Shown here: positions 10,060-24,000 of the stretch, piece after piece
How positions within the stretch are numbered: the stretch's first letter is position 1
Layout: each line of letters opens with the position of its first letter
DNA from: Fidelibacterota bacterium
Lineage (GTDB): Bacteria; Fidelibacterota; Marinisomatia; Marinisomatales; TCS55
Assembly (NCBI GenBank): GCA_036228285.1
Contig: JAZAOA010000068.1
Coordinates: 6,921-30,920, forward strand
Length of the DNA stretch: 24,000 nucleotides
Reading direction: 5' to 3'
Program-made: the position numbers and the translations under genes
The notes under the pieces: generated by a model
What the model was told of the DNA's origin: nothing
Database searches by the model: none
The model's input: the letters and a program-made list of their open reading frames with translations, nothing else

Positions 10060-11532
10060 TTGCAATACTTAAGAAAAATAAAACCATTATACTTTATAAT
10101 GATGAATTTACTTTGTTCTGTATTTGCGCAAGAGCATCCAGGAATTCATAAACTTCAGCTAGAGTATTATAATAATAACTACAATGAATTATCTAGTCCA
10201 TATACAAACGAACACATTATAGATAAACAAAATCGTTCAAGTGGACCTAATCGAGAAGTTTTTGGTTACCACCCATATTGGATGGGGACCGCATGGCAAA
10301 ATTATAATTACAATCTAATATCTACTATTGCCTATTTTAGTGCAGAAGCAACTGCTCAAGGGAATCTAAGTAATCTTCATGGTTGGCCAGTGGCTGGTTT
10401 AATTAATTTGGCGCATGCAAATGGTGTTAATGTCGTGCTTTGTGTAACACTTTTTGATAGTGAAGATTTGATTACATTATTAAGCAATCCATCTAATAGA
10501 GAAAATCTAATTAATAATCTTTTAATACAGGTACAAGCTGGGAATGCTGATGGCGTAAATGTTGATTTTGAATCGTTCCCATCATCACAAAAACAAAATA
10601 TGGTCCAATTTATTACAGATCTTACTAACACATTTCACACGGAGATACCTGGTTCGCAAGTTACATTGGCAACACCAGCAGTTGACTGGAATGATGGATG
10701 GGATTACAATGCCCTCGCAACTATAAGTGATGGGTTATTTATTATGGGATATAATTACTATTATGGTGGAAGTTCAACCACTGGTCCAATTGCTCCGCTT
10801 TCTGGTAATGGAATTACTGTTTCTTGGACGTTAAATGACTATTTGAATAAAACAAATCATCAATATAATAAATTGATTCTTGGATGTCCATATTATGGCT
10901 TCGAATGGTCAGCTGCATCTGAATCTAGTGGATCACCTACTTTAGATTATGGTTCTGCAAAATTTTATTCTGAAATGGAAGGAAACGCATTGTCATATGG
11001 TAAACTTTGGGATGAATCTTCACAAACCCCATGGTATCGCTATCAAAATCCAAACTGGTATCAAGGATGGTATGATGATAGTTTATCACTGTCCCTTAAG
11101 TATGATTTTGCCATTGAAAATAACTTATTAGGAGTAGGCATGTGGGCTATGGGTTATGATGGAAATAATCCTGAACTTTGGGATCTATTATCTTCAAAAT
11201 TTATTACGAATGGTTTGCATGTATCTTCTCAAGATAGATTCACTTTACCAATTTCCTCTATGATTCATTCGCTTTATCCTAATCCATCAAACTCATCAAT
11301 TACATTAGATTTTTCATTAAGAAATAAAAATGATAATGCAATAATATCTATTTTTGATTTATTAGGACGTCCTGTAAAAAACGTAAACATCCTATCGAAT
11401 GGAAATGAAAATTATAAATGGATATGGGATGGGACAGATATGTTTAATCAAGAATTACCTGCAGGTATTTATTTTCTAACAATATCTGTTGATCAAAATA
11501 TAGAAAGTAGAAAAATCACATTATTAAAATAA
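10060..11532 (+). CDS. Secreted GH18 glycoside hydrolase (cortical-fragment-lytic / SleL-YaaH-like subgroup) with a T9SS type-A C-terminal sorting domain
   Basis: GH18 catalytic motif DGVNVDFE, plus the subgroup-typical FGYHPYW near the N-terminus and GVGMWAMGYD near the barrel end. The C-terminal ~85 aa (YPNPSNSSITLDF...IFDLLGRPV...AGIYFLTI...KITLLK) match the Por/T9SS CTD pattern. It has a signal-like N-terminus with a TTG start at 10060; an alternative ATG at 10099 gives a poorer signal peptide. Confidence 0.85.
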   Translation: MQYLRKIKPLYFIMMNLLCSVFAQEHPGIHKLQLEYYNNNYNELSSPYTNEHIIDKQNRSSGPNREVFGYHPYWMGTAWQNYNYNLISTIAYFSAEATAQGNLSNLHGWPVAGLINLAHANGVNVVLCVTLFDSEDLITLLSNPSNRENLINNLLIQVQAGNADGVNVDFESFPSSQKQNMVQFITDLTNTFHTEIPGSQVTLATPAVDWNDGWDYNALATISDGLFIMGYNYYYGGSSTTGPIAPLSGNGITVSWTLNDYLNKTNHQYNKLILGCPYYGFEWSAASESSGSPTLDYGSAKFYSEMEGNALSYGKLWDESSQTPWYRYQNPNWYQGWYDDSLSLSLKYDFAIENNLLGVGMWAMGYDGNNPELWDLLSSKFITNGLHVSSQDRFTLPISSMIHSLYPNPSNSSITLDFSLRNKNDNAIISIFDLLGRPVKNVNILSNGNENYKWIWDGTDMFNQELPAGIYFLTISVDQNIESRKITLLK

Positions 11533-12806
11533 TGAATTATTATTGTATCATATTTTTTGTACTTATAACAAATCTATTATTTTCTCAAACAGACAAATCT
11601 ATTCATCAAGTACAATCAAAATATTATAGTTCTATTCCCACTCCTCCAGTAGATAAAGTTAATATAAAAACTGGCTTAGATATTCTCTTAGATAAGAAAC
11701 AACACTTAATTATTGATAAAAAAATTGCACTTGTTACAAATCAAACTGGTGTTGATCAAAATGGAATTGCGAATTATAAAAAATTAATGGAATTGAAAAA
11801 AACAAATCTGAAAGTTGTTTTCTCACCTGAGCATGGGCTATTTGGAGAAACAGATTCAAAAGTTACATATGATGATGGAATTGAGAATTTACCAAAAGTA
11901 TATAGCTTATATGGCACAACACGAAAACCAACTAAAGAAATGCTAGATGGCATTGATATAATTATTTATGATATTCAAGATATTGGGGCACGATTTTATA
12001 CATATATATCAACTTTAGGTTTAGTTATGGAAGCGGCTGCAGCATTAAATATACCAGTGATAGTTTTAGATAGACCGAATCCAATACGGGGTGATATTAT
12101 TGAAGGACCATTACTAGATCTTGAATATCAATCATTTATTGGTAAATACCCTATACCTATTCGATACGGAGGAACCGTTGCTGAACTTGCTGAAAGAATT
12201 ATTAAGCAAAAATGGATTAATCCTATACCAAAGCTGACTGTAATTCCAATGGAAGGATGGCATTCATCATTATGGTATGATGAAACTACCCTACCATGGA
12301 TTAAACCTTCTCCAAATATTCCAGATTTGGAAACAGCATTAATTTATCCAGGAATGTGTTTATTAGAAGGAACAAATATAAGCGAAGGAAGAGGTACAAA
12401 TAACCCATTTAAATGGTTTGGGGCGCCATGGATAGATAATAAAGGATTATCCCAAGAACTAAATAAATTAAAATTACCAGGTGTTGTTTTTGTACCAAAA
12501 TCATTCACCCCAATATCAATTCCTGGAGTTTCAGATAGACCAAAATATGAAGATCAGCTATGCTATGGAATTGAAATTAGAATAATAGATAGAAATCAAT
12601 TTTACAGTATTAAAACAGGTGTAAGTGTATTAAAAAAAATAAATGAGCTATACCCGGATTCCCTAATTATTAAAGAAAAACGATTGAATAGACTATGGGG
12701 GAGTGACACGCTTCTAAAAACTTTACGAGATAATAAAGTGTCAAATAAATTTTTTTCAACAGAATTAATAACAATATTTTTATTAATGATTTTATTTATT
12801 AATTAG
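11532..12806 (+). CDS. namZ: DUF1343-family exo-beta-N-acetylmuramidase (NamZ-like), exported
   Basis: DUF1343 motifs are present: ALVTNQTGVD, FSPEHGLFG, YDIQDIGARFYTYISTL, LDRPNP and ISEGRGT. A signal-like N-terminus (MNYYCIIFFVLITNLLFSQ) is present. The ATG overlaps the GH18 stop by 1 nt (TAATG). Confidence 0.85.
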   Translation: MNYYCIIFFVLITNLLFSQTDKSIHQVQSKYYSSIPTPPVDKVNIKTGLDILLDKKQHLIIDKKIALVTNQTGVDQNGIANYKKLMELKKTNLKVVFSPEHGLFGETDSKVTYDDGIENLPKVYSLYGTTRKPTKEMLDGIDIIIYDIQDIGARFYTYISTLGLVMEAAAALNIPVIVLDRPNPIRGDIIEGPLLDLEYQSFIGKYPIPIRYGGTVAELAERIIKQKWINPIPKLTVIPMEGWHSSLWYDETTLPWIKPSPNIPDLETALIYPGMCLLEGTNISEGRGTNNPFKWFGAPWIDNKGLSQELNKLKLPGVVFVPKSFTPISIPGVSDRPKYEDQLCYGIEIRIIDRNQFYSIKTGVSVLKKINELYPDSLIIKEKRLNRLWGSDTLLKTLRDNKVSNKFFSTELITIFLLMILFIN

Positions 12807-23217: not shown

Positions 23218-24000
23218 AAAATATTTCAAATAGATTATTTGCGCTTGATTGTTTTCGAGGGCTTACTATTGCTTTTATGATCATTGTTAATACTCCTGGG
23301 AGCTGGTCATATATTTATAGTCCTTTACGACATGCGAAATGGCATGGATGCACTCCAACAGATCTCGTTTTTCCTTTCTTTTTATTTATTGTTGGGGTTG
23401 CAATGCGTTTTTCATTTAATCATTATAATTATGAACCATCTAAAAAGCTGCTTAAAAAAATTTTCTGGCGGACAATAACGATCTTTGTATTTGGTTTAAT
23501 ACTCAATGCGTTTCCATTTATCCGTCAAGATTGGGACTGGTCTACTTTACGCATTATGGGAGTTTTACAGCGCATTGGGCTAGCATATGGATTGGCATCT
23601 ATAATTTCGTTATATATTAAGGTCGATAAAATGTGGATCGCCTGCAGTATTATTCTTATTGGTTACTGGTTTCTATTATTTTTATTTGGAGGAAATGACC
23701 CATACGCACTGAATACAAATTTAGTTCGTACTATTGATATAGCTTTATTAGGAGAAAATCACCTTTGGCTTGGAAACGGAGTCCCATTTGATCCGGAAGG
23801 CTTATTAAGTACTATACCTGCCAGCGTTACAGTTCTTATTGGCTATTTTGTGGGGATGCTAATTCAAAAAAATGAAAATAAAAGTTTGCTTGTAAAAATA
23901 TTAATAATACATGCTGCGCAAATTGCAGCAATCGGGTGGATTTGGGGGTTGTTCTTTCCGATTAATAAACCTCTATGGACGAGCAGCTATGTTTTATATA
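23214..24000 (+). CDS. HGSNAT-like (DUF1624/DUF5009, heparan-alpha-glucosaminide N-acetyltransferase family) polytopic membrane protein; 3' end beyond the window
   Basis: Not in the supplied ORF track because no stop codon is reached. Hand translation from ATG 23214 (ATGA overlap with the kinase stop) gives an open frame to 24000. It reads [64 protein letters not shown]...[14 protein letters not shown]...[13 protein letters not shown]...[14 protein letters not shown]. The LDxxRG, H-x-x-WHG, DxVFPFF, [14 protein letters not shown] and NKxLWTSSYV motifs are the family hallmarks. Confidence 0.8.
   Translation, partial: [262 protein letters not shown]

What the first reader, a model, noticed from the sequence alone, without database searches (positions are those of the whole stretch)
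10060..24000. Three-operon, ten-gene peptidoglycan/MurNAc salvage locus ordered by cell compartment and lacking the AmpG/AmpD paradigm
Seen in sequence: there are three tightly packed units. The first (+) is GH18-T9SS / NamZ / PBP4 / LdcA / APC permease, joined by a 1-nt overlap, a 6-nt gap, an ATGA overlap and a 72-nt gap. The second (-) is NagZ::beta-lactamase-fold fusion / AnmK / DUF819, joined by a 6-nt gap and an ATGA overlap. The third (+) is BadF-type kinase / HGSNAT-like membrane protein, joined by an ATGA overlap. Established knowledge: NamZ, NagZ, AmiE, PBP4, LdcA and AnmK each act on peptidoglycan fragments. Inference: sorting signals sort the pathway by compartment. The GH18 carries a T9SS CTD; NamZ and PBP4 carry signal peptides; NagZ-AmiE carries a lipobox; LdcA, AnmK and the kinase carry none. 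That implies muropeptides are stripped to monosaccharides and free stem peptides outside the cytoplasm, as in Bacillus subtilis but inside a diderm, and are then imported. This contrasts with the E. coli route of AmpG import followed by cytoplasmic NagZ/AmpD. No ampG, ampD, mpl or murQ is in the window. A T9SS-secreted glycosidase heading the locus suggests foraging on foreign cell-wall debris rather than only self-recycling.
Basis: partly seen in the sequence, partly recalled or inferred. Interest (0 to 1): 0.7.

Follow-up and report, generated by a model that had tools for sequence, protein, structure and literature searches.

The report
Cell-wall fragment salvage locus in SAR406
This is a real, conserved gene cluster in an uncultured ocean bacterium (SAR406/Marinimicrobia) that takes bacterial cell-wall fragments apart outside the cytoplasm and imports the pieces; it is a new variant of a known kind of system, and three of its parts (two membrane proteins and a kinase) have no proven substrate.

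Summary
Nine of ten family labels hold. The exception is the "BadF-type kinase". It has no Pfam hit above threshold, and its model (pLDDT 95) matches ROK sugar kinases.

The window comes from a pelagic Marinimicrobia bacterium. Gene order is kept in five other species, and core pairs recur across Marinimicrobia, Bacteroidota and Calditrichota. No ampG, ampD, mpl, murQ, nagA or nagB lies in the window or 10 kb beyond. Related clusters, however, carry an AmpG-like or sodium:solute transporter in 15 or more of 80 loci, and MurQ and SusC/D occur in Bacteroidota versions. The rest of this genome could not be searched.

The concept is largely published:
- periplasmic wall processing in Tannerella forsythia;
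- the NagZ-beta-lactamase fusion RmNag3 of Rhodothermus, proposed to act without AmpG/AmpD;
- the NagZ/AmiE/NamZ trio of B. subtilis;
- a cultured member of this phylum that lives on exogenous muropeptides.

Unresolved: the substrates of DUF819, the DUF5009/HGSNAT-like protein and the kinase, and the fate of MurNAc-6P. Verdict: real, a new variant of a known kind, moderate interest.

The parts
8426..9829 (-). M20 family metallopeptidase (dipeptidase-like), no signal peptide. Probable part of the system: cytoplasmic breakdown of stem-peptide fragments.
   Evidence: Pfam Peptidase_M20 and M20_dimer. NCBIfam dipeptidase-like models, all below cut-off. Divergent from GH18. The M20|GH18-NamZ adjacency is kept in L083 at 63%, 45% and 51% identity.
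10060..11532 (+). GH18 glycosidase with signal peptide and T9SS C-terminal sorting domain. YdhD/YaaH/SleL-like subgroup; likely cuts peptidoglycan glycan outside the cell.
   Evidence: Pfam GH18 8e-32 and Por_Secre_tail 1.4e-9; TIGR04183. Best solved relatives are 4wiw, YdhD and YaaH. It shares their DGVNVDFE motif, where the aligned classical chitinase 8hw6 has DIDWE. The same architecture sits next to NamZ in Gelidibacter.
11532..12806 (+). NamZ (GH171) exo-beta-N-acetylmuramidase with signal peptide and a hydrophobic C-terminal tail.
   Evidence: NamZ_N 2.9e-75 and NamZ_C 1.3e-41. PEHG motif present. N-terminus and C-terminal tail 405-424.
12813..14336 (+). PBP4-type (S13) DD-carboxypeptidase/endopeptidase, exported (possibly a lipoprotein, FFLQC).
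   Evidence: Peptidase_S13 2e-79; TIGR00666 at 223.5 bits against a cut-off of 107.8. SNVK and KTG motifs.
14333..15259 (+). LdcA-type (S66) LD-carboxypeptidase, cytoplasmic.
   Evidence: Peptidase_S66 N and C domains. GYSD and GH motifs. No signal peptide.
15332..16699 (+). APC-superfamily permease. Candidate importer of a stem-peptide-derived amino acid or conjugate; substrate unknown.
   Evidence: AA_permease_2 1.7e-55. Nearest NCBIfam models are LAT-type and FrlA, all far below cut-off. Conserved in place in L007-L011.
16719..17897 (-). DUF819 membrane protein, start overlapping the AnmK stop (ATGA). Candidate importer of a wall-derived small molecule, possibly anhMurNAc.
   Evidence: DUF819 1.6e-91. 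About 9 hydrophobic segments. Kept next to AnmK in L007-L012 and L035, and found in another position in the clusters of L014 and L028. Described as a CPA/AT-superfamily family in PMC8396727 (title and abstract seen; the DUF819 passages were not read).
17894..19009 (-). AnmK, anhydro-MurNAc kinase, cytoplasmic.
   Evidence: Pfam AnmK 8.7e-93. NCBIfam AnmK models reach 357.9 bits, below the cut-off of 387 for the best-scoring model.
19016..21931 (-). Lipoprotein fusion: two-domain GH3 NagZ plus a serine beta-lactamase-fold domain (YfeW/PBP4B-like, presumed AmiE-type MurNAc-L-Ala amidase).
   Evidence: GH3 4.7e-84 and Beta-lactamase 1.7e-60. Solved relatives of the GH3 part include B. subtilis YbbD/NagZ at third rank. 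31% identity over 388 aa to E. coli YfeW, E=9e-41. LLISGC lipobox. KHFPGHG, VVTD and SITK motifs. The same architecture was characterised as RmNag3 (PMC6987092).
22027..23217 (+). Sugar kinase of a family without a Pfam model, ROK-like fold (ORF opens at TTG 21985; gene callers use ATG 22027). Likely a GlcNAc and/or MurNAc 6-kinase.
   Evidence: No Pfam hit above threshold. 241 representatives in 1.84 billion proteins. The family profile hits ROK kinases in PDB. AF2 pLDDT 95; Foldseek top hits are ROK gluco-, GlcNAc- and ManNAc-kinases at 1e-14 to 1e-12. Fused to SpoIID in two members. Linked to wall-salvage genes in 80 loci.
23214..24000 (+). DUF5009/HGSNAT-like (NagX/TfMurT superfamily) membrane protein, cut by the window end (371 aa on the source contig).
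   Evidence: HGSNAT_cat 5.2e-10. NagX model 170 bits against a cut-off of 480 for the full-length protein. The H-A-x-W-x-G motif (HAKWHG, residue 40) is present. 52-54% identical to Bacteroidota copies that sit next to MurQ, SSF and NagZ.
7087..8457 (-). Canonical ROK kinase (7087-8010) and a DUF302 protein (8029-8457), directly downstream of the M20 gene. Possible members (hexose or GlcNAc kinase); link not shown.
   Evidence: Pfam ROK 2.5e-56 and DUF302 1.9e-23. ROK glucokinase subfamily model 159.8 bits against a cut-off of 260. Tight spacing on the source contig.

Best explanation
The region from about 8.4 kb to just past the window end is a peptidoglycan-fragment salvage cluster of a pelagic SAR406 (Marinimicrobia/Fidelibacterota) bacterium.

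Proposed course:
1. A T9SS-exported GH18 of the YdhD/YaaH type nicks wall glycan outside the cell.
2. In the periplasm a lipoprotein NagZ removes terminal GlcNAc. Its fused serine-hydrolase domain (YfeW/AmiE-like) removes the stem peptide. NamZ removes terminal MurNAc. A PBP4-type enzyme opens cross-links and trims D-Ala. This is the B. subtilis NagZ/AmiE/NamZ exo-lytic trio placed in a diderm.
3. The small products cross the inner membrane through the three membrane proteins of the locus.
   - DUF819, translationally coupled to AnmK, is the best candidate for anhMurNAc.
   - The DUF5009/HGSNAT-like protein, translationally coupled to the ROK-like kinase, either imports MurNAc or GlcNAc (TfMurT precedent) or re-N-acetylates amino sugars at the membrane (NagX precedent).
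   - The APC permease is the best candidate for a peptide-derived amino acid.
4. In the cytoplasm AnmK and the ROK-like kinase phosphorylate the sugars. LdcA and the M20 peptidase shorten the peptides.

Shown: the gene families, the intact catalytic motifs, the layout and the conserved synteny. Inferred: compartments (from N-termini only), the amidase activity of the beta-lactamase domain, every transporter substrate, the kinase substrate, and the fate of MurNAc-6P (no MurQ nearby).
For: - Family assignments and thresholds and intact catalytic motifs.
- Junctions indicating co-transcription and translational coupling.
- N-terminal signals.
- The GH18 groups with the YdhD/YaaH group of GH18 proteins.
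- The beta-lactamase domain is 31% identical to YfeW (E=9e-41). yfeW is the third gene of E. coli murQ-murP-yfeW.
- The whole order NamZ-PBP4-LdcA-APC-DUF819-AnmK-NagZ::bla-kinase-DUF5009 is kept in five other species at 74-77% kinase identity. DUF819-AnmK-NagZ::bla-kinase(-DUF5009) is kept at 54-57%. Among 80 loci, DUF5009 is present in 32, the beta-lactamase domain in 32, NagZ in 23 and NamZ in 23.
- M20|GH18-NamZ is kept in L083.
- Gelidibacter carries DUF5009-SSF-MurQ-GH3-GH18(T9SS)-NamZ. Another Bacteroidota genome carries MurQ, SSF, DUF5009, the GH3::beta-lactamase fusion and SusC/D.
- Literature: sequential NagZ/AmiE/NamZ digestion of peptidoglycan (PMC8054146); periplasmic NamZ processing in T. 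forsythia (bioRxiv 10.1101/2021.12.02.470905); RmNag3 (PMC6987092); a muropeptide-dependent cultured member of the phylum (PMC11652737).
Against: - No MurQ, MupP/AmgK/MurU-type genes, NagA or NagB in the roughly 34 kb seen, so the pathway has no visible end.
- No outer-membrane importer (SusC/D or TonB receptor) and no regulator in the window.
- Compartments rest on reading N-termini by eye.
- The DUF5009 protein keeps the H-A-x-W-x-G motif in which I place the catalytic histidine of HGSNAT/NagX. In Bacteroidota it sits beside an SSF symporter. Both facts suit an acetyltransferase better than a transporter (PMC9007349).
- APC permeases normally carry single amino acids, not peptides, so import of the LdcA substrate is unexplained.
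- Across the family, the kinase's most constant neighbour is a GT2-domain protein that the window lacks.
Confidence: 0.7

Rival explanations
1. Housekeeping recycling of the cell's own wall only. The locus recovers the cell's own turnover products in its own periplasm, and the GH18 has another role.
For: PBP4, LdcA and AnmK are classic self-recycling enzymes. AnmK's substrate comes from lytic transglycosylases. The window has no SusC/D, no TonB receptor and no regulator.
Against: A T9SS-exported glycosidase heads the first unit and is conserved next to NamZ. A related Bacteroidota locus carries SusC/D. The cultured member of the phylum feeds on exogenous muropeptides, and this reliance is traced to the phylum's ancestor (PMC11652737). 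The two roles are not exclusive.
Confidence: 0.3
2. The DUF5009/HGSNAT-like protein is a NagX-type transmembrane N-acetyltransferase, not a transporter. It re-acetylates GlcN-type residues of de-N-acetylated wall fragments. DUF819 is then the main sugar importer, standing in for the SSF or AmpG transporters of relatives.
For: Full-length match to the NagX model (E=6e-50). The HAKWHG motif is present. In Bacteroidota the gene lies beside an SSF symporter and near deacetylase-domain proteins. Fitness data support NagX as an acetyltransferase, including in a Bacteroidota species (PMC9007349). Hottmann 2018 places TfMurT in the sodium symporter superfamily (PMC5790795).
Against: The score is far below the NagX cut-off (170 against 480). 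Price et al. state that NagX is distantly related to TfMurT, a MurNAc importer that needs its kinase partner. Here the gene is translationally coupled to a kinase.
Confidence: 0.4
3. The organism still uses AmpG or an SSF-type permease, and perhaps AmpD, encoded elsewhere. In that case the locus is not an AmpG-independent route.
For: AmpG-like MFS genes lie inside the homologous cluster in 15 of 80 relatives, and SSF genes in several others. LdcA is cytoplasmic and needs imported tetrapeptide. Only about 34 kb of the genome was seen.
Against: None within the window plus 10 kb on each side. The closest seven species-level relatives also lack it between the kinase and DUF5009. The periplasmic NagZ-amidase fusion makes import of disaccharide-peptides unnecessary.
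Confidence: 0.35
4. A chitin/GlcNAc utilisation locus: GH18 chitinase, NagZ, NagX and a GlcNAc kinase.
For: GH18, GH3 and a NagX homologue are typical of chitin loci. RmNag3 cleaves chito-oligosaccharides (PMC6987092).
Against: NamZ, AnmK, PBP4 and LdcA act only on peptidoglycan parts. The GH18 carries the DFE motif of the YdhD/YaaH group, not the DIDWE of the aligned classical chitinase. No NagA or NagB is present.
Confidence: 0.05

Closest known systems
Bacillus subtilis murQ-murR-murP-amiE-nagZ-namZ operon (exo-lytic NagZ/AmiE/NamZ trio; PMC8054146)
   Same: Exported GH3 NagZ, a serine beta-lactamase-fold partner and NamZ (GH171) are encoded together. The logic of sequential removal of GlcNAc, peptide and MurNAc outside the cytoplasm is the same.
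   Different: Here NagZ and the amidase-like domain are one lipoprotein. The host is a diderm. There is no MurQ, MurP or MurR. AnmK, LdcA, PBP4, a T9SS GH18, DUF819 and DUF5009 are added.
Tannerella forsythia peptidoglycan-scavenging operon Tanf_08345-08385 (gtf, gtf, lytB, ampG, namZ1, murT, murK, murQ; PMC5388701, PMC7670621, bioRxiv 10.1101/2021.12.02.470905)
   Same: FCB-group bacterium, periplasmic NamZ, a membrane protein plus kinase pair, and salvage of foreign wall material. Relatives of the window's kinase sit in GT2-kinase-SpoIID/LytB-AmpG-NamZ arrays that mirror this operon.
   Different: The window lacks AmpG, LytB/SpoIID, the GT2, the BadF-type MurK and MurQ. It has AnmK (reported absent in T. 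forsythia), the NagZ::beta-lactamase fusion, PBP4, LdcA and DUF819.
RmNag3 of Rhodothermus marinus (GH3 domains 1 and 2 plus a beta-lactamase domain; PMC6987092)
   Same: Same three-domain architecture with an export signal. The authors already proposed a periplasmic NagZ and a B. subtilis-like set-up without AmpG/AmpD in a diderm.
   Different: RmNag3 is not clustered with wall-recycling genes. The activity of its beta-lactamase domain was not tested either.
Escherichia coli AmpG-NagZ-AmpD-LdcA-AnmK-MurQ-Mpl recycling pathway
   Same: LdcA and AnmK homologues are present. A YfeW/PBP4B-like domain is associated with MurNAc genes, as in murQ-murP-yfeW.
   Different: No AmpG, AmpD, Mpl or MurQ in the region. 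NagZ is exported rather than cytoplasmic.
Fidelibacter multiformis IA91 (cultured Marine Group A; PMC11652737, citing Katayama et al. 2024)
   Same: Same phylum. It lives on exogenous muropeptides. Its lineage carries the same kinase family (L051 and L071).
   Different: IA91 is an anaerobic peptidoglycan auxotroph of class AB16. Only the GT2-kinase pair is seen around the kinase in L051 and L053, and the kinase-SpoIID pair in L071. Whether the window's pelagic lineage is an auxotroph is unknown.

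Membership tests
B. subtilis-type exo-lytic trio (NagZ/AmiE/NamZ) | Exported two-domain GH3 N-acetylglucosaminidase | tested here: met
   GH3 4.7e-84. Solved relatives include B. subtilis YbbD/NagZ (4.5e-65). Lipobox LLISGC. KHFPGHG and VVTD motifs.
B. subtilis-type exo-lytic trio (NagZ/AmiE/NamZ) | AmiE-type MurNAc-L-Ala amidase (serine beta-lactamase fold) | tested here: inconclusive
   Beta-lactamase domain 1.7e-60 with an SITK motif. 31% identity to E. coli YfeW/PBP4B. No AmiE sequence was available for direct comparison, and that AmiE has this fold is from memory.
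B. subtilis-type exo-lytic trio (NagZ/AmiE/NamZ) | NamZ (GH171) exo-muramidase with signal peptide | tested here: met
   NamZ_N and NamZ_C well above cut-offs. PEHG motif. N-terminal signal ending LFS|QT.
B. subtilis-type exo-lytic trio (NagZ/AmiE/NamZ) | MurQ etherase and a MurNAc transporter in the same operon | tested here: not met
   No tblastn hit to E. coli MurQ or MurP in the window or in L001-L006. Genes past the window end are SDR, 3HCDH and AtuA.
T. forsythia-type scavenging operon | AmpG muropeptide permease | tested here: not met
   No hit in the window or in the 10-kb flanks. Present in 15 of 80 related loci.
T. forsythia-type scavenging operon | BadF/BcrAD-type MurNAc kinase MurK (PF01869) | tested here: not met
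   No PF01869 hit even at E<=10. The family profile and the fold match ROK kinases. No structure described as MurK appears among the top 50 Foldseek hits.
T. forsythia-type scavenging operon | MurT MurNAc importer | tested here: inconclusive
   The window has a DUF5009/HGSNAT-like protein. Price et al. call NagX distantly related to TfMurT (PMC9007349). Hottmann et al. place TfMurT in the sodium symporter superfamily (PMC5790795). The TfMurT sequence was not obtainable.
E. coli cytoplasmic recycling pathway | AmpD amidase and Mpl ligase | tested here: not met
   No tblastn hit at E<=1e-3 in the window or in L001-L086. The whole genome was not testable.
E. coli cytoplasmic recycling pathway | LdcA and AnmK | tested here: met
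   The S66 domains and the AnmK Pfam domain score above their cut-offs. The NCBIfam equivalog scores fall below cut-off (LdcA 138 against 378; AnmK 358 against 387).
ROK family (PF00480), for the kinase | Pfam gathering score; ROK fold | tested here: inconclusive
   Sequence score 20.1 against a cut-off of 22.9, so not met. The fold clearly matches: Foldseek E=3.6e-14 to 3r8e, and NagK, NanK and glucokinases. DGGG and GGGTG motifs are present; no CxC or CxxC pair, so the ROK zinc motif as I recall it looks absent.
NagX transmembrane glucosamine N-acetyltransferase (NF046061) | Equivalog score; catalytic histidine | tested here: inconclusive
   170 bits against a cut-off of 480, so not an equivalog. 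The HAKWHG motif is present at residue 40; that its histidine is the catalytic one was judged from a recalled HGSNAT motif, not from an alignment.
T9SS cargo | Type A C-terminal sorting domain | tested here: met
   PF18962 38.5 against 27; TIGR04183 41 against 23, at residues 405-486 of the GH18. T9SS machinery genes in this genome were not tested.
Bacteroidota polysaccharide utilisation locus (PUL) | SusC/SusD pair | tested here: not met
   None among the window ORFs. Present in the related locus L092.

The most novel reading that the evidence does not exclude
Two uncharacterised families supply the missing uptake and activation steps for wall-derived monosaccharides in FCB-group bacteria.

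1. DUF819, translationally coupled to AnmK, would be an inner-membrane importer of anhMurNAc or another wall-derived small acid. In this SAR406 clade it would replace AmpG or SSF-type permeases.
2. The Pfam-less ROK-like kinase family is found in 259 species genomes, mostly of the FCB group. It probably includes the 'glycosyltransferase' Tanf_08355 of the T. forsythia operon. It would be a dedicated GlcNAc/MurNAc kinase working with the DUF5009 membrane protein.

This would give DUF819 its first function and define a new sugar-kinase family.
Probability: 0.25. Interest if true: 0.65.

Novelty: new variant of a known kind. Interest (0 to 1): 0.45.

Why it matters
SAR406/Marinimicrobia are abundant in the dark and low-oxygen ocean, and only one member has been cultured. 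That isolate depends on other bacteria's wall fragments. A compact, conserved wall-salvage locus in a pelagic lineage would suggest that peptidoglycan debris is a regular carbon and nitrogen source for the group.

The locus also points to concrete candidates for the unknown steps: DUF819, the DUF5009 protein, the new kinase family and a conserved SDR. These candidates can be tested by complementation in E. coli.

For peptidoglycan specialists the general scheme is not new. What is new is the particular gene set: AnmK together with an exported NagZ-amidase fusion, no AmpG or MurQ nearby, and three unassigned membrane proteins.

Tried and rejected
- An exact-sequence look-up of the kinase (ATG start) found nothing. 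The DUF819 look-up worked and gave the source contigs.
- phmmer of the kinase against PDB gave only noise.
- AF2 on a shallow alignment of 74-98% identical sequences failed (pLDDT 41). A 38-sequence alignment of distant homologues gave pLDDT 95.
A 17-sequence subset worked.
- Rfam gave no hits in the window.
- The promoter and terminator scans were at or below shuffle expectation and say nothing.
- Ruscitto 2016 (PMC5075041) and Katayama 2024 (Nat Microbiol) are not held. As a result, the family of TfMurT and the gene list of the IA91 pathway could not be checked.
- The review PMC6403190 did not state the fold of AmiE.
- Chitin-locus reading: rejected. See the rival explanations.
- 'BadF-type kinase': rejected. 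See the membership tests.

Full report
**Observation**

- A plus-strand run: 10060-11532, 11532-12806, 12813-14336, 14333-15259, 15332-16699.
- A minus-strand run: 19016-21931, 17894-19009, 16719-17897.
- A plus-strand pair: 21985/22027-23217 and 23214 onward.
- The junctions have the stated 1-nt, 6-nt, ATGA and 72-nt spacings.

Pfam and NCBIfam confirm nine labels above curated thresholds:
- GH18 with a type-A T9SS C-terminal domain;
- NamZ_N and NamZ_C;
- Peptidase_S13/PBP4;
- Peptidase_S66;
- AA_permease_2;
- DUF819;
- AnmK;
- a 971-aa GH3 plus Beta-lactamase fusion;
- HGSNAT_cat.

Catalytic motifs are intact throughout. GH18 and NamZ have signal peptides that end before Gln, the Bacteroidota 'Q-rule' described in bioRxiv 10.1101/2021.12.02.470905. 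PBP4 has a hydrophobic N-terminus ending FFLQC. The fusion has an LLISGC lipobox. LdcA, AnmK and the kinase have no signal. These calls are made by eye, because no signal-peptide predictor was available.

**The kinase is not BadF-type**

It has no Pfam family above threshold. ROK scores 20.1 against a cut-off of 22.9, and nothing else appears even at E<=10. An exhaustive HMMER search found only 241 representative relatives among 1.84 billion proteins. A profile of 38 of them hits ROK sugar kinases in PDB: 3r8e at 1.6e-4, and NanK. With that alignment AlphaFold gives pLDDT 95. Foldseek returns only ROK-type gluco-, GlcNAc- and ManNAc-kinases and ROK repressors at 1e-14 to 1e-9, and no structure described as MurK among the top 50. 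It is therefore a new, divergent ROK-like family. Two members are fused to a SpoIID domain, a family annotated as a putative lytic transglycosylase/LytB in the T. forsythia operon.

**Source and extent**

Exact copies of the DUF819 protein lie on TARA and other marine contigs and on the NCBI MAG GCA_002698765.1. Close homologues are labelled Candidatus Neomarinimicrobiota.

Past the window end, the last gene is 371 aa long. It is followed by an SDR, a 3-hydroxyacyl-CoA dehydrogenase and AtuA, and not by murQ, nagA or nagB.

tblastn with E. coli MurQ, MurP, MurR, AmpG, AmpD, NagA, NagB and Mpl finds nothing in the window or on those contigs. YfeW/PBP4B aligns with the beta-lactamase domain at 31% identity over 388 aa (E=9e-41).

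Upstream, a divergent M20 peptidase, a DUF302 protein, a canonical ROK kinase and a DASS symporter form a fourth tight run.

**Synteny**

A scan of one genome per species found the kinase family in 259 genomes. Most are Marinimicrobia/Fidelibacterota, Bacteroidota and Calditrichota. tblastn of the window proteins against the 80 best loci shows the following.
- At 74-77% kinase identity, five species keep the full order from NamZ to the DUF5009 gene.
- At 54-57% identity, two loci keep the block from DUF819 through the kinase; one of them also retains the DUF5009 gene (the other contig ends inside the kinase).
- Across all 80 loci, the DUF5009 gene occurs in 32, the beta-lactamase domain in 32, NagZ in 23, NamZ in 23, AnmK in 10 and DUF819 in 9.

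More distant Marinimicrobia have a different array. It runs GT2-domain protein, kinase, SpoIID-like protein, then a sodium:solute symporter or an AmpG-family MFS transporter, then DUF5009 and an SDR. The NagZ fusion, an esterase and an AmiA-like amidase lie divergent to it.

A Bacteroidales locus has GT2, kinase, SpoIID, AmpG and NamZ, with DUF5009 next to MurQ. This mirrors the T. forsythia operon gtf-gtf-lytB-ampG-namZ1-murT-murK-murQ (PMC5388701; bioRxiv 10.1101/2021.12.02.470905). By position, the second 'gtf' (Tanf_08355) may be this kinase; that is an inference.

The DUF5009 protein is 52-54% identical to Bacteroidota copies. In Gelidibacter maritimus the copy heads DUF5009-SSF-MurQ-GH3-GH18(T9SS)-NamZ. 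In another genome it sits with MurQ, SSF, a GH3::beta-lactamase fusion and SusC/D.

The gene set is therefore an FCB-wide module, and the window holds a trimmed and rearranged version of it.

**What it most likely does**

The exported enzymes are the B. subtilis trio that digests peptidoglycan stepwise from non-reducing ends (PMC8054146). Here NagZ and the amidase-like domain are fused. A PBP4-type endopeptidase and a secreted GH18 are added.

The GH18's closest solved relatives are 4wiw, YdhD and YaaH, and it shares their DFE motif. SleL, a further relative, is deposited as a 'cortical-lytic enzyme'; the cortex/peptidoglycan activity of this group is otherwise recalled from the literature, not tested here.

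The products would be GlcNAc, MurNAc, anhMurNAc and free peptides. These must cross the inner membrane through DUF819, DUF5009 or the APC permease. They are then handled by AnmK, the ROK-like kinase, LdcA and the M20 peptidase.

I favour DUF819 for anhMurNAc for four reasons.
- Its start overlaps the AnmK stop.
- It recurs elsewhere in related clusters (L014 and L028).
- It is described as belonging to the CPA/AT transporter superfamily (PMC8396727; only the title and abstract were seen).
- In Neisseria meningitidis it forms a cassette with an M15-family metallopeptidase (PMC12671195); M15 includes D-Ala-D-Ala and LD-carboxypeptidases (from memory).

For DUF5009 the evidence is split. Translational coupling to a kinase recalls TfMurT/MurK. 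Against that stand the HAKWHG motif, which matches the HGSNAT catalytic-His motif as I recall it, the full-length NagX match and the SSF neighbour in Bacteroidota, which suit a NagX-type acetyltransferase (PMC9007349). Published statements on TfMurT's family conflict (PMC9007349 against PMC5790795), and I could not obtain the sequence.

The kinase substrate is unresolved. In L083 it follows a single-domain, cytoplasmic-type NagZ, which points to GlcNAc. If Tanf_08355 is this kinase, it also co-occurs with a separate MurNAc kinase in T. forsythia, which would point the same way.

**Comparison with what is known**

- The extracytoplasmic route without AmpG/AmpD in a diderm was proposed for Rhodothermus marinus, whose RmNag3 has this exact architecture (PMC6987092).
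- Periplasmic NamZ processing and import by MurT and AmpG is the current model for T. forsythia.
- Fidelibacter multiformis, the only cultured member of this phylum, lives on exogenous muropeptides, and that reliance is traced to the phylum's ancestor (PMC11652737).

Its 'no AmpG' element is shown only for about 34 kb of one contig.

**Verdict**

The locus is real and conserved, and it is a new variant of a known kind. Interest is moderate (0.45). The value lies in the testable candidates (DUF819, DUF5009, the new kinase family, the conserved SDR) and in the ecological reading for pelagic SAR406.

Noticed in passing
beyond the window end; L001 2816-3562 (-), equivalent to about window 24336-25082 (+): An SDR (adh_short) gene follows the DUF5009 gene after a 6-nt gap. 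An SDR lies within 1.2 kb downstream on the same strand in 19 of 31 related loci that have room for it. The third unit probably has three genes. The SDR's role is unknown.
   Followed up: partly
window 1661-5390 (-): ABC ATPase (4446-5390), ABC-2 permease (3740-4453), an ABC_transp_aux/DUF7088 protein (2220-3749) and a DUF4340 protein (1661-2239), tightly packed. The arrangement resembles the GldA/GldF/GldG gliding and T9SS-associated ABC system of Bacteroidota; that resemblance is from memory and was not tested.
   Followed up: no
window 11532-12806 (+), NamZ residues 405-424: NamZ ends in a 20-residue hydrophobic tail (ELITIFLLMILFIN) after the NamZ_C domain. It could be a C-terminal membrane anchor in addition to the N-terminal signal. 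Conservation was not checked.
   Followed up: no
L016 8460-9986, L044 8441-9988, L076 8349-9971, L051 7617-9164: Across the family, the kinase's most constant neighbour is a 508-540-aa protein with a C-terminal GT2 domain and an unassigned N-terminal half, often overlapping the kinase start. The window's clade lacks it. Its role in wall salvage is unknown. Of the loci inspected (L051, L053, L071, L072), this is the only conserved neighbour in L051 and L053; L071 and L072 also keep a 439-aa downstream gene with the SpoIID-like N-terminus.
   Followed up: partly
window 5506-9829 (-): M20 peptidase, DUF302, a canonical ROK kinase and a DASS sodium-anion symporter form a fourth tightly spaced run, divergent from the GH18. 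Only the M20 gene was shown to be syntenic with the locus elsewhere.
   Followed up: partly
L092 2914-5391; L093 17230 onward: Bacteroidota versions of the module include a GH9 protein fused to a polysaccharide deacetylase domain (CelD_N, Glyco_hydro_9, Polysacc_deac_1). The window has nothing like it. This may relate to N-acetyl handling and to the NagX-like reading of DUF5009.
   Followed up: no
window 10060-24000: No transcriptional regulator lies in or next to the locus. The Bacteroidota versions carry DeoR or GntR regulators. This may reflect genome streamlining.
   Followed up: no
window 37-1101 (-): A 354-aa ORF with no Pfam family at E<=1e-3.
   Followed up: no
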